Origin: a virus
Taxonomy: Duplodnaviria; Heunggongvirae; Uroviricota; Caudoviricetes
Virus record (IMG/VR): IMGVR_UViG_3300013126_000009
Strand: one strand, 5' to 3'
DNA length: 64,000 nucleotides
Each line of letters opens with the position of its first letter. Position 1 is the stretch's first letter. The position numbers and the translations under genes are program-made. This document shows positions 21,141 to 34,666 of this stretch, piece after piece. The notes below the pieces were generated by a model. It did not search any database and was not told the origin of the DNA. It was given only the letters and a program-made list of their open reading frames with translations.

Positions 21141-21168
21141 AAAGCTGAAGCAAACGCTTCGGCTTTTT
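21141..21168 (+). terminator. Intrinsic terminator
   Basis: aaagctgaagc-aaac-gcttcggcttttt. Confidence 0.75.
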
Positions 21169-21201
21169 CTGTTTGTTTACATTTTTAGTTTTAAATTTAG
21201 A

Positions 21202-21903
21202 TTGATTCTAATGGAAGATGTTAGAAAATATCTAAATAGGTCATCTAAGCCTTTAACTTCAAGTGTAATTAAAGATGATTTTATTGTTGCCAGTGAAAAG
21301 GCTTTTGATTGTATTTTTAATGGCACTTCAGAATTTTATCCATGGGAATTACCAGATGATGAGTTATTAAAGGATTTTTCTTTAGGTGTTATTGTTGGTG
21401 GTTCTGGAACAGGTAAATCCACATTGCTTAAATCGTTTGGGGATGAAGAAGTGCCCATATGGGGTGCCGATAAATCGGTGGTATCACACTTTAACTCCCC
21501 AGATGAAGCAATAAATAAATTAATGGCCGTTGGTTTAAATACAATACCTAATTGGTATAAGCCATATCATGTTTTATCTAATGGTGAAAAATTCAGAGCT
21601 GACTTGGCGAGAAAGGTAAAGAATAATGCTGTAATCGATGAATTTACCAGTGTTGTCGATAGAAATGTAGCAAAAGCTGCTAGTGTTGCTCTATCTAGAT
21701 ATGTGAGGAAGAACGATATCAAAAATGTTGTAGTTTCAACATGTCACCACGACATTGTTGATTGGTTAGAGCCTGATTGGGTGATTAACACAGATAGTGG
21801 TCATTTATATGACGGTTTTTTTTTATCCGACCAGAAATCAATCTCGAAATATATCGTGCAGACCATAGTGCGTGGGGAATGTTTAAAGACCATCACTATC
21901 TAA
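21202..21903 (+). CDS. ABC-type ATPase (N-terminal part of an ABC-GNAT fusion)
   Basis: GGSGTGKS, LSNGE, AVIDE, TCHHD. Confidence 0.85.
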   Translation: MILMEDVRKYLNRSSKPLTSSVIKDDFIVASEKAFDCIFNGTSEFYPWELPDDELLKDFSLGVIVGGSGTGKSTLLKSFGDEEVPIWGADKSVVSHFNSPDEAINKLMAVGLNTIPNWYKPYHVLSNGEKFRADLARKVKNNAVIDEFTSVVDRNVAKAASVALSRYVRKNDIKNVVVSTCHHDIVDWLEPDWVINTDSGHLYDGFFLSDQKSISKYIVQTIVRGECLKTITI

Positions 21904-22295
21904 GTGGTGAGTTATCAAAAGCTTCTAGATGTTATATTGGGTTATTTGGTGGTGAAATTGTTGCATTTGGTGCCACAATAACAATGCCTAATGGTAATTT
22001 AAAAAATGCTTGGAGGGAGCATCGAACAGTAATATTACCTGACTATCAGGGGTTTGGATTAGGTACTCGATTTTCAGATGCCATTGCTCAAATACATATA
22101 GACCTAGGACATAGATTCTTTTCAAGAACTGCCCATCCACGTTTTGGTTGGTATAGGGAACATTCGCCTTTATGGAAAGCTACATCAAAAAATAAGAAGC
22201 TTCGTACAGATATAAAACATGATAATATCTTTAACAACCATTATGCTGATAATAAGCGAGTTTGTTTCAGCCATGAGTACGTAGGTGAACAATAA
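21879..22295 (+). CDS. GNAT (Mom-like) acetyltransferase; probably reached by -1 frameshift at ~21818-21825
   Basis: HHYL, R-TVILPDYQGFGLG acetyl-CoA motif; frame open upstream to the T9 run. Confidence 0.75.
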   Translation: MFKDHHYLSGELSKASRCYIGLFGGEIVAFGATITMPNGNLKNAWREHRTVILPDYQGFGLGTRFSDAIAQIHIDLGHRFFSRTAHPRFGWYREHSPLWKATSKNKKLRTDIKHDNIFNNHYADNKRVCFSHEYVGEQ

Positions 22296-33841: not shown

Positions 33842-34666
33842 ATGAAAAATAATAGCATTAACCCAACAACCCTTAAAGGTAAAGAAAAGACTCAAAGAAT
33901 GCTTGAACTTATGGGTCAAACTATGATAAAAGAAAATGTTGACCGTTCAGTTATTGAACTAACTAAAAGGGGTCCAGATGGTAAAATCTATGGTATTATC
34001 AGAGAAAATCATGAGTATTACATTAAGATTGCCGAAGGTACTGAAAATCTAACAAAGGATAGTTTCAAGTATATTGGTGGTCTTAAAAATAAAAAAGATT
34101 TTGCTTACCCATCATATGCGAAAGCTATTAAACATTTGAACTATAAATTCAAGTCCCTTGATGAATCTTTGGGTGTTAAATCAAATATAAATGTATTTGA
34201 AAATGATAATTTGGTAACCGAACACCATCCTTATAAAGCTGACCAAAAATTGTCAGCAACAAAGGGTATGGGTGATGGTCAAGAATATATTGTTGATAAA
34301 AAAGGTGCTGAACTTTCATTTAAAAATAAAGAAGGTAAAGCTGAAGACGGTTTCGGTGATAATGTAGCTGAAAAGGATGTGATGGATGAATTTGAAGGGG
34401 TTACACTATCTGAAAACGAATCTAAGATTGACGAAATGATTACTGGTAAAATAAATCGAAGAGTAACTATATCAGAAGATGACGTTAGAGTTTCAAAACC
34501 ATTAAGTATTCTTAGGGGTATTGACGTAATCGATGAGGCTATTTCTAAAGCTACTGGTGAGAAGAAGCTTGAAGAAATGGCTATAGCAACGGAACTTCTT
34601 AAAAAATTCTCTAAAGATGAAGTGATTTCAATCTTAGAAAATGTAACTGGAAAAAAAAAAGTCTAA
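33842..34666 (+). CDS. Hypothetical head-associated protein; possible frameshift fusion with the next ORF
   Basis: Ends GKKKV on an A10 run; several x-x-E motifs. Confidence 0.7.
   Translation: MKNNSINPTTLKGKEKTQRMLELMGQTMIKENVDRSVIELTKRGPDGKIYGIIRENHEYYIKIAEGTENLTKDSFKYIGGLKNKKDFAYPSYAKAIKHLNYKFKSLDESLGVKSNINVFENDNLVTEHHPYKADQKLSATKGMGDGQEYIVDKKGAELSFKNKEGKAEDGFGDNVAEKDVMDEFEGVTLSENESKIDEMITGKINRRVTISEDDVRVSKPLSILRGIDVIDEAISKATGEKKLEEMAIATELLKKFSKDEVISILENVTGKKKV

What the first reader, a model, noticed from the sequence alone, without database searches (positions are those of the whole stretch)
21202..22295. Candidate -1 programmed frameshift on U_UUU_UUA joining an ABC ATPase to a Mom-like GNAT
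Seen: frame 0 reads GAC GGT TTT TTT TTA (T9 at 21816-21824), giving the heptamer T_TTT_TTA in the correct phase. The -1 frame is open from there as FIRPEINLEIYRADHSAWGMFKDHHYL, extending the GNAT N-terminus. Known: U_UUU_UUA is the HIV-1 gag-pol slippery site, and ABC-ATPase/Mom-like GNAT fusions are predicted phage DNA-modification enzymes. Inference: recoding or slipped-strand phase variation sets the ratio of ATPase to fusion, or switches modification on and off.
Basis: partly seen in the sequence, partly recalled or inferred. Interest (0 to 1): 0.7.

Follow-up and report, generated by a model that had tools for sequence, protein, structure and literature searches.

The report
Conserved slip site joins phage ATPase-acetyltransferase
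A run of nine T's inside one gene of a giant lake phage is a conserved slip site, so the gene should make both a short ATPase and, after a one-base backward shift, a full ATPase-acetyltransferase that others have predicted to modify DNA bases.

Summary
T9 lies at 21816-21824. Frame 0 reads GGT TTT TTT TTA. The -1 frame is open from 21813 into the GNAT domain.

Both ORFs match one phage family profile end to end (phrog_11143), so this is one gene.

It is not an error or a pseudogene:
- 51 related loci (45 unique) keep exactly T9.
- Only 3 have T10 (in frame) and 1 has T8.
- Contigs of 4 runs from 3 studies show no gap.
- dN/dS of the out-of-frame GNAT is 0.20, against 0.17 for the ATPase.

Sister lineages replace T9 by the in-phase heptamers A_AAT_TTT, T_TTT_TTT or G_GGA_AAG. 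Each is followed 6 nt later by a 10-11 bp stem with compensatory changes. The T9 group has no conserved structure.

Streptococcus prophages carry an independent -1 site at the same linker.

Best reading: programmed -1 recoding. At T9 it is probably RNA-polymerase slippage plus ribosomal slippage; in the heptamer lineages it is classical frameshifting.

"Mom-like" is not supported.

This scan already reached the same conclusion on other genomes. I found no paper describing it.

The parts
21141..21203 (+). Terminator-like hairpin (21141-21166) followed by a promoter-like site (21176-21203) just upstream of the gene. Context only.
   Evidence: Consensus scan. These are pattern matches and not evidence of function.
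21211..21903 (+). Frame-0 ORF for an ABC-type ATPase of 230 aa from ATG 21211. The ORF list starts it at TTG 21202. It ends with a 25-residue frame-0 tail and TAA at 21901-21903.
   Evidence: It matches phrog_11143 positions 40-195 at E 5.4e-60. The Pfam ABC_tran hit covers the Walker A part. Start 21211 fits the N-termini of fused homologs.
21810..21812 (+). TGA in the -1 frame. It closes that frame immediately 5' of the run, so any shift must happen at or after 21813.
21816..21825 (+). Slip site: T9 plus A. It holds two in-phase heptamers, T_TTT_TTT and T_TTT_TTA, and is also a 9-nt homopolymer of the kind on which RNA polymerase slips.
   Evidence: GGT TTT TTT TTR is invariant in 45 of 45 unique T9 loci, while a Gly codon five codons upstream varies. 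It lies in the low-confidence interdomain linker of the model of a fused homolog.
21825..22295 (+). -1 frame coding part: the linker end (IRPEINLEIY...) plus the GNAT acyltransferase domain, ending at TAA 22293-22295. With the upstream part it gives a fusion of 361 aa.
   Evidence: It matches phrog_11143 positions 200-351 at E 2.8e-38 and Pfam Acetyltransf_1 at 24.8 bits, above the 20.7 cut-off. dN/dS is 0.20 in the T9 clade. R, P and W of the overlap are conserved in the -1 frame.
21826..21900 (+). Overlap zone. The frame-0 tail of the short product (SDQKSISKYIVQTIVRGECLKTITI) is read in the -1 frame as the first strand and helix of the GNAT domain. No stable RNA structure was found here in this phage.
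   Evidence: Folding 21811-21910 gives z +0.25. RNAalifold finds 0 pairs in 42 T9 sequences.

Best explanation
21211-22295 is one gene of the phage ABC-ATPase/GNAT family, expressed by programmed -1 recoding at the T9 run in the interdomain linker.

Standard reading gives a 230-aa ATPase with a short frame-0 tail. A shift to the -1 frame gives the 361-aa ATPase-GNAT enzyme. The phage therefore makes both products in a ratio set by the sequence.

For this T9 type I think the main route is slippage of the host RNA polymerase on the 9-nt homopolymer. Transcripts with one extra U are then read normally into the GNAT frame. Ribosomal -1 slippage on U_UUU_UUU or U_UUU_UUA is likely a second contributor.

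In sister lineages that replaced the run by a 7-nt slippery heptamer, the same job is done by classical ribosomal frameshifting stimulated by a stem-loop 6 nt downstream.

Shown here:
- one gene;
- a conserved out-of-frame arrangement;
- purifying selection on the -1 part;
- conserved slip sequences;
- a stem in the heptamer lineages and none at T9.

Inferred:
- that both products are made;
- which polymerase or ribosome step slips;
- that the ratio matters, for example an ABC dimer carrying fewer GNAT heads than ATPase heads.

I put recoding of either kind at about 0.85-0.9. The confidence given here (0.55) is for the specific claim that polymerase slippage is the main route at T9.
For: One gene:
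- Both ORFs match phrog_11143 collinearly.
- 413 longer homologs were found, and the 120 listed are mostly about 350-370 aa.
- The 27 aligned fused proteins show an invariant Walker A, signature, Walker B and GNAT Q-G-x-G-x-G.
- The AF2 model of a 74%-identical fused homolog has pLDDT 87.7, with the junction in a low-confidence linker.

Conserved split, among 171 loci holding both halves:
- 75 are -1.
- 93 are in one frame, 3 of them only because the run is T10.
- 1 is +1 (T8).
- 1 has an in-frame stop.
- 1 has an internally deleted ATPase (L173), which also keeps T9 and the -1 arrangement.

Slip sites of the -1 loci:
- T9: 51
- A_AAT_TTT: 17
- G_GGA_AAG: 2
- T7: 1
- G_GAT_TTT: 1
- no canonical heptamer: 3

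Not an error:
- Contigs of 4 runs from 3 studies carry the stretch with 0 gaps. One of them is a strain with 3 SNPs.
- Among protein clusters at least 67% identical to the GNAT part, 118 of the 120 listed in the near-length class are 136-146 aa, that is, called from the internal ATG. Among the longer proteins only 5 reach that identity.

Selected:
- The GNAT ORF is intact in 66 of 66 -1 loci whose downstream sequence is complete.
- dN/dS is 0.196 for GNAT and 0.167 for the ATPase.
- In the overlap, the -1 frame gives 0.38 and frame 0 gives 0.59. R is kept in 43/43, P in 42/43 and W in 43/43.

Mechanism:
- All 11 unique loci of the four heptamer classes (A_AAT_TTT, G_GGA_AAG, T7, G_GAT_TTT) have a closing stem starting 6 nt after the heptamer, with MFE -15.7 to -21.8.
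- That stem has 90.9% of cells paired, 3 pairs with compensatory changes, and slid controls of 22-40%.
- The 42 T9 sequences pair at 58.4%, which is shuffle level, and RNAalifold finds no pair.
- The window's own 100 nt fold with z +0.25.
- The whole 9-nt run is fixed: GGT in 45/45.
- PMC5009743 passages say bacterial RNAP slips with high efficiency at 9 A or T, that the hybrid is 9-10 bp, and that Thermus dnaX uses such a run.
- A passage says U_UUU_UUA and U_UUU_UUU are much less shift-prone in E. coli than A_AAA_AAG.
Against: - There is no RNA or protein evidence. No RNA holder was listed. The runs laid were assembled contigs, which hide minor length variants.
- The run is also a perfect in-phase double heptamer, so purely ribosomal slippage cannot be excluded.
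- One T9 locus (L007) keeps a strong stem of -15.9.
- T10 and T8 alleles exist, so some DNA-level length change occurs or is mis-called.
- The host and its polymerase are unknown.
- The loci are not independent samples. One search kept the best 80 by E-value, which favours unbroken genes. One search was seeded with a T10 protein. Viral contigs and metagenome contigs may share samples.
- My shuffles kept mononucleotide content only.
- dN/dS used 124 of 820 possible pairs, those with dS between 0.05 and 1.5.
Confidence: 0.55

Rival explanations
1. [quoted passage not shown] The T9 length would be only a by-product of Phe codons in the linker.
For: Two canonical heptamers are in phase. The sister lineages clearly use heptamer plus stem, the classical ribosomal signal, at the same codons. 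Fused relatives have Phe-rich linkers such as GFFRKREP. L007 combines T9 with a strong stem.
Against: There is no conserved 3' structure in 42 T9 sequences. The mean MFE is -7.4 and the mean z is +0.42. The window's own z is +0.25. A passage says U-run heptamers are weakly shift-prone in E. coli. Selection keeps all nine T's, including the 4-fold site of GGT in 45/45 loci; a heptamer would not need that.
Confidence: 0.3
2. DNA-level phase variation. Slipped-strand mispairing during replication toggles T9 (off) and T10 (on) in the phage population, and only T10 genomes make the fusion.
For: T10 (3 loci) and T8 (1 locus) alleles occur singly, scattered among T9 relatives in the tree. Fused GFFF proteins exist in databases. 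A 31-nt variant unitig overlaps the run in one sample (record 2).
Against: T9 is the assembled state in 51 of 55 run-bearing loci and in all 4 runs laid. Split GNAT ORFs outnumber fused forms by more than 20 to 1 among close relatives. Sister lineages achieve the same -1 arrangement with heptamers that do not mutate by slippage. A mostly-off gene would not keep dN/dS at 0.2.
Confidence: 0.07
3. Two separate proteins: the ATPase, and a GNAT started at the internal ATG 21879 (138 aa), with no recoding. Alternatively the gene is a decaying pseudogene or the T9 is a sequencing error.
For: Gene callers call the 138-aa ORF from that ATG. That ATG is nearly invariant in the T9 group.
Against: - The Met is a conserved residue of fused proteins too (consensus WxMFKxHHYL).
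- R, P and W upstream of it stay conserved in the -1 frame and are invariant family residues.
- The model puts the first GNAT strand (residues 211-216) upstream of that Met.
- Streptococcus-type loci have no such start.
- The ORF is intact in 66 of 66 loci and dN/dS is 0.2.
- Independent assemblies agree on T9.
Confidence: 0.05

Closest known systems
dnaX tau/gamma: E. coli -1 ribosomal frameshift (A_AAA_AAG with stimulators) and Thermus thermophilus transcriptional slippage at a 9-nt homopolymer run
   Same: One gene gives two products that share an N-terminal ATPase, in a set ratio. The same gene is recoded by ribosomes in some lineages and by RNA polymerase on a 9-nt run in others (PMC5009743 passages). 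That split matches the heptamer-plus-stem versus T9 pattern seen here.
   Different: In dnaX the shift makes the shorter product. Here the shift makes the longer, complete enzyme. The protein family differs, the setting is a phage, and nothing here has been shown experimentally.
Shigella flexneri mxiE (transcriptional slippage yielding an extended product)
   Same: Slippage is needed to extend the product into a downstream frame (PMC5009743 passage).
   Different: mxiE is a bacterial regulator, not a phage enzyme. That its site is a T9 run is my recollection and comes from no call.
Phage tail assembly chaperone G/GT -1 frameshift
   Same: It is a -1 shift conserved across very diverse phages, giving a short and a C-terminally extended protein. 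It is the main annotated phage frameshift: 2397 of 2476 joined genes in SEA-PHAGES (PMC10885494 passage).
   Different: It is a structural assembly factor, not an enzyme. In the ABC-GNAT family many members are simply fused (93 of 171 loci), and the shift arose several times.
HIV-1 gag-pol U_UUU_UUA frameshift
   Same: The heptamer is identical to 21819-21825 (PMC5009743 passage).
   Different: HIV uses eukaryotic ribosomes. That it has a 3' stem-loop is my recollection. No conserved stem follows the T9 here.
ABC-ATPase/GNAT fusion family (phrog_11143), the system predicted by Iyer, Aravind and co-workers to acylate a DNA base
   Same: The window's two ORFs match the family profile end to end. 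The paper's example QAX98348.1 is the fused CDS of Aeromonas phage AsFcp_2, a tblastn relative.
   Different: In the passages I read, the paper describes fusions and does not mention recoding. The function is a prediction only. The original 2013 paper was not held.

Membership tests
-1 programmed ribosomal frameshift signal | Slippery heptamer X_XXY_YYZ in phase with frame 0 | tested here: met
   T_TTT_TTT at 21816-21822 and T_TTT_TTA at 21819-21825 are in phase.
-1 programmed ribosomal frameshift signal | Stimulatory RNA structure about 5-9 nt downstream, or a 5' SD-like element | tested here: not met
   For the window, z is +0.25. In the T9 group the stem is paired at 58.4%, which is shuffle level, and RNAalifold finds 0 pairs. 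It is met in sister lineages: a 10-11 bp stem 6 nt after the heptamer in 11 of 11 unique loci. A 5' SD-like element was not tested.
-1 programmed ribosomal frameshift signal | Out-of-frame arrangement and slip site conserved in homologs, with the downstream frame under selection | tested here: met
   75 of 171 loci are -1. The site is invariant in 45 of 45 unique T9 loci. dN/dS of GNAT is 0.196.
-1 programmed ribosomal frameshift signal | Trans-frame protein demonstrated | not testable with these tools
   This needs a reporter assay or mass spectrometry of the junction peptide.
Transcriptional slippage (RNA polymerase realignment) site | Homopolymer of about 9 or more A or T | tested here: met
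   T9 is present. Exactly nine T's are kept in 51 of 55 run-bearing loci. The threshold is taken from a PMC5009743 passage.
Transcriptional slippage (RNA polymerase realignment) site | RNA length heterogeneity that is absent from DNA | not testable with these tools
   No RNA holder was listed. Only contigs could be laid.
ABC-ATPase/GNAT fusion family (phrog_11143) | Collinear match of both halves to one family profile | tested here: met
   ORF1 matches positions 40-195 at E 5.4e-60. ORF2 matches positions 200-351 at E 2.8e-38. The profile has 357 positions.
ABC-ATPase/GNAT fusion family (phrog_11143) | ABC motifs (Walker A, signature, Walker B) and the GNAT CoA-binding Q/R-x-x-G-x-G motif | tested here: met
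   Invariant columns in A1 are G62 S64 G65 G67 K68, S122 G124 E125, D142 E143, and Q279 G280 G282 G284. The window has GGSGTGKS, LSNGE, VIDEFTS and YQGFGLG. The fold search returns ABC NBDs and GNATs. The motif names are recalled.
ABC-ATPase/GNAT fusion family (phrog_11143) | Acyl modification of a DNA base | not testable with these tools
   This is a published prediction only (PMC7824862 passage).
Mom family (phage Mu adenine-modifying GNAT) | Detectable sequence or profile similarity to Mu Mom | tested here: not met
   hhalign of A1 against Mu Mom (L190:1378-2103) gives probability 0.8% over 14 columns.
Phase-variable contingency locus | Run-length polymorphism within or between populations that switches the frame | tested here: inconclusive
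   Between contigs the counts are T9 51, T10 3 and T8 1. Variation within a sample cannot be seen in contigs.

The most novel reading that the evidence does not exclude
The same interdomain linker of one phage enzyme family acquired a -1 recoding site at least four separate times. The four cases are: the T9 / A_AAT_TTT / T7 clade; G_GGA_AAG; the Streptococcus-Oenococcus G_GTT_TTT type; and Thomasclavelia. Within one clade the signal changed from ribosomal (heptamer plus stem) to polymerase-based (T9 without stem). This would mean the working enzyme needs a fixed excess of GNAT-less ATPase subunits, for example an asymmetric ABC dimer with a single acyltransferase head. It would also make this family a natural series for comparing the two recoding mechanisms on one gene.
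Probability: 0.35. Interest if true: 0.75.

Novelty: new member of a known kind. Interest (0 to 1): 0.6.

Why it matters
Programmed frameshifts in phages are annotated almost only for tail chaperones. Here a widespread, uncharacterised enzyme gene is routinely mis-annotated as two genes, or as an 'ABC transporter' plus a 'hypothetical protein', in hundreds of metagenomic phages and in finished Streptococcus prophages.

Recognising the recoding has three uses:
- It corrects those annotations.
- It shows that the ATPase-only product is made on purpose, which constrains how the predicted DNA-modifying enzyme is built.
- It offers a natural set of variants (T9, T7 plus stem, A_AAT_TTT plus stem, G_GGA_AAG plus stem, fused) for testing when polymerase slippage replaces ribosomal frameshifting.

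The Streptococcus prophages and the cultured Aeromonas and Tenacibaculum phages make this testable at the bench.

Tried and rejected
What led nowhere or was rejected:
- Sequencing error and pseudogene were considered and rejected (see the rival explanations).
- Read-level run length could not be had. All four runs laid were Logan contigs. A 31-nt variant unitig at 21811-21841 (depth 23, 1 other letter) could not be resolved.
- No RNA holder was listed, so expression and RNA heterogeneity were not tested.
- The genome-contig scan with the Streptococcus GNAT part gave only 3 weak partial hits.
- Rfam gave only two sub-threshold chance hits.
- The pdb fold search gave generic ABC NBDs and GNATs, and TmcA at rank 48, with no specific functional relative.
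- Pfam on neighbours: an LRR protein lies upstream and an SLT transglycosylase downstream. There is no adjacent ParB in this phage, unlike in the siphophages.
- Oenococcus and Thomasclavelia loci show no convincing stem.

Literature:
- Searches found no paper describing recoding in this family. COG2401 gave 0 papers.
- The GeneTack cluster lists are in supplements, which are closed, and may bear on this claim.
- Iyer et al. 2013 was not held, so its content is known to me only through the passage of PMC7824862.
- What I saw of each paper: PMC7824862, PMC5009743, PMC10885494, PMC3711429 and PMC4066793 as passages only; all others as search listings only.
Full report
**Observation.**
- The window holds a T9 run at 21816-21824.
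- The ORF that starts at TTG 21202 reads GAC GGT TTT TTT TTA and stops at 21901-21903. By comparison with homologs, its start is more likely ATG 21211.
- The GNAT ORF lies in the -1 frame. That frame has a TGA at 21810-21812. From 21813 it reads RFFFIRPEINLEIYRADHSAWGMFKDHHYL... and stays open to 22295.
- T9 runs as such are common in this 31% G+C window: 11 found against 17.6 expected. The case therefore rests on comparison with relatives.

**One gene.**
- ORF1 matches PHROG 11143 (357 positions, function unknown) at positions 40-195. ORF2 matches positions 200-351.
- Pfam sees only a Walker-A piece of ABC_tran and a weak GNAT.
- A search for longer proteins found 413 relatives with E up to 0.001. 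Most of the 120 listed are about 350-370 aa.
- 27 of these align over their whole length, with invariant ABC and GNAT motifs.
- An AlphaFold model of the 74%-identical fused protein P0003 has mean pLDDT 87.7. It shows an ABC nucleotide-binding domain, a low-confidence linker at residues 201-210 where the run lies, and a GNAT domain whose first strand starts at residue 211.
- Foldseek returns ABC transporter ATPases (MalK, MJ0796, FtsE, LolD) and GNATs.

**Census of relatives.** I fetched three sets of loci:
- 26 with the GNAT part;
- 80 with the alignment (the best 80 of at least 580, a ranking that favours unbroken genes);
- 73 from metagenomes with the fused protein P0007.

With the 4 phage loci fetched before and the window, that makes 184 sequences. 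Of these, 171 hold both halves. After correcting three loci that are fused genes followed by an extra GNAT paralogue, the classes are:
- 93 in one frame;
- 75 in the -1 arrangement;
- 1 in +1;
- 1 with an in-frame stop (Tenacibaculum pT24);
- 1 with an internally deleted ATPase (L173), which also keeps T9 and the -1 arrangement.

The -1 loci carry these sites at the same codons:
- GGT TTT TTT TTR in 51 loci (45 unique);
- GGA/GAA AAT TTT in 17;
- GTG GGA AAG in 2;
- GAT TTT TTT in 1;
- GGG GAT TTT in 1;
- no canonical heptamer in 3 (Thomasclavelia, and two identical Streptococcus records).

The only one-frame loci with the GFFF linker have T10 (3 loci), and the single +1 locus has T8.

**Not an error, not a pseudogene.**
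- Contigs from 4 public runs of 3 studies carry 21500-22100 with no gap. One of them is a strain with 3 substitutions. These are assemblies, so minor variants would not show.
- Among protein clusters at least 67% identical to the GNAT part, 118 of the 120 listed in the near-length class are 136-146 aa, that is, called from the internal ATG of split genes. Only 5 of the longer class reach that identity.
- The -1 ORF is intact for 153-180 codons in 66 of 66 -1 loci with complete downstream sequence. The other frames there carry 0.05-0.13 stops per codon.
- Pairwise dN/dS in 41 unique T9 loci is 0.196 for the GNAT part and 0.167 for the ATPase part. This used the 124 of 820 pairs with usable dS.
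- In the 25 codons after the run, the -1 frame gives 0.38 and frame 0 gives 0.59. The family-invariant R, P and W are kept in 43, 42 and 43 of 43 sequences.
- So the region upstream of the internal ATG is translated in the -1 frame.

**RNA structure.**
- All 11 unique loci of the four heptamer classes (A_AAT_TTT, G_GGA_AAG, T7, G_GAT_TTT) fold into a closing stem of 10-11 bp. It starts 6 nt after the heptamer and closes a loop of about 27 nt. MFE ranges from -15.7 to -21.8 kcal/mol and z from -1.8 to -5.5 against mononucleotide shuffles.
- On their alignment the stem has 90.9% of cells paired. Three pairs show changes on both sides (GC, AU, GU and CG at one pair). With the partner slid, only 22-40% are paired.
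- The same columns in 42 T9 sequences pair at 58.4%, no better than shuffles. RNAalifold predicts no pair.
- Their mean MFE is -7.4 with z +0.42. The window's own 100 nt fold with z +0.25 against dinucleotide shuffles.
- Fused genes have a mean MFE of -13.8, and 32 of 74 reach -14 or lower. Their z is only -0.16, so this reflects composition, not structure.
- One T9 locus, L007, still has the stem (-15.9). It is sister to the T7 locus.

**Tree.**
- I built a FastTree of the ATPase parts of 145 distinct rows (local SH-like support only).
- It places every T9, A_AAT_TTT, T7, G_GAT_TTT, T10 and T8 locus in one clade of 59 rows (support 99). That clade has no member that is fused without a run.
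- The three T10 loci and the one T8 locus sit singly among T9 relatives.
- G_GGA_AAG, the Streptococcus/Oenococcus group and Thomasclavelia lie elsewhere.
- Parsimony needs 7 changes between shifted and unshifted states, 3 of which are the T10 singletons. I read this as at least four origins.
- Long branches and the unrooted tree make that number provisional.

**Streptococcus type.**
- I examined 10 of the 57 phage records that matched by tblastn. Seven are -1: Thomasclavelia TR-TP1, Streptococcus 315.4, phiNIH1.1, MismyG, phiGBSVK, Javan420 and Oenococcus Vinitor-27. Two are fused: Pasteurella Pmp13 and Aeromonas AsFcp_2. One has an in-frame stop: pT24.
- 16 of 16 further viral contigs of the Streptococcus type are -1, with ATG CAR CAG GTT TTT CRA invariant down to 54% identity.
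- A stem (CCCCAC with GUGGGG) starts 5 nt after the U run. In the most distant locus the 5' arm changed and pairs with a different 3' partner at the same 5' position.
- One lineage (Javan420 and L209) has a further break inside the GNAT part and looks decayed.
- In these siphophages a ParB N-terminal-domain gene overlaps the start of the ATPase gene, and the terminase follows.

**Mechanism.**
- The comparative pattern shows that the -1 arrangement is functional. In the heptamer lineages it has the full anatomy of a ribosomal frameshift signal.
- For the T9 type the evidence points elsewhere. There is no stimulator. All nine T's are selected: GGT in 45 of 45 loci, while another Gly codon nearby varies.
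- Nine is the length at which bacterial RNA polymerase slips efficiently, matching its 9-10 bp hybrid. Thermus dnaX uses such a run, while E. coli dnaX uses a ribosomal site (PMC5009743 passages).
- The same review says U-run heptamers are much less shift-prone than A_AAA_AAG in E. coli.
- I therefore favour polymerase slippage with a ribosomal contribution at T9. I cannot separate the two without RNA or protein data.

**Function and family.**
- A passage of PMC7824862 says a GNAT coupled with an ABC ATPase was predicted to make an uncharacterised acyl modification of a DNA base. It is said to occur in jumbo phages such as pT24, with QAX98348.1 as the example.
- That accession is the fused CDS of Aeromonas phage AsFcp_2 in my set. 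The passages I read do not mention recoding.
- A profile comparison with Mu Mom gives probability 0.8%. The GNAT is thus not Mom-like by sequence.

**Novelty and caveats.**
- Seven literature searches found no description of recoding in this family.
- This scan's own earlier notes reached the same reading on other genomes. Those notes are not independent evidence.
- The kind of mechanism is well known. The gene family and the side-by-side occurrence of both signal types are new as far as I could see.
- Nothing here is experimental.

Noticed in passing
window 34651-34660: A 10-nt homopolymer (T10 on the minus strand, so A10 on the plus strand). Another first-reader note flags it as a second candidate -1 slippage site in a head polyprotein gene.
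   Followed up: no
L002:1636-1638 (Tenacibaculum phage pT24): The ABC-GNAT gene is in one frame but carries an in-frame TGA inside the GNAT domain. It is annotated as two 'ABC transporter ATP-binding' CDS. This could be a pseudogene, an error or readthrough.
   Followed up: partly
L105, L107, L108 (about 2364-2858); L016 (3895-4146, 4896-5051); L017 (3878-4132): Some phages carry extra GNAT-like copies downstream of the ABC-GNAT gene. In L105, L107 and L108 it is a full stand-alone paralogue after a fused gene. In L016 and L017 they are partial copies.
   Followed up: partly
L173:1201-1904: This relative keeps T9 and the -1 GNAT frame, but most of its ATPase domain is deleted (Walker A region joined to DWLEPEW). 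It may be a deletion derivative or an assembly artefact.
   Followed up: no
P0006 (711 aa): This homolog is 71% identical in the GNAT part and also carries homing-endonuclease/LAGLIDADG Pfam domains. That suggests an intein inserted in this gene.
   Followed up: no
L003:402-920, L184:396-917, L186:326-889: In temperate siphophages a ParB N-terminal-domain gene overlaps the start of the ABC-GNAT gene. An ASCH gene and the terminase follow. The window has no ParB gene beside its copy.
   Followed up: partly
window 21811-21841 in run X1: A 31-nt unitig at depth 23 with one different letter overlaps the T run, beside the main contig at depth 31.6. A second strain or variant is present in that lake sample.
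   Followed up: no
L188 / L209 (Streptococcus phage Javan420): The GNAT frame is broken again at an A-rich run (..HPKNKK*). This copy seems to be decaying, although it keeps the linker slip site.
   Followed up: no
window 21879-22295 (P0123): The window's own 138-aa GNAT ORF is on record on 4 contigs, the longest 266,462 bases. The phage is therefore a jumbo phage of at least 266 kb.
   Followed up: no
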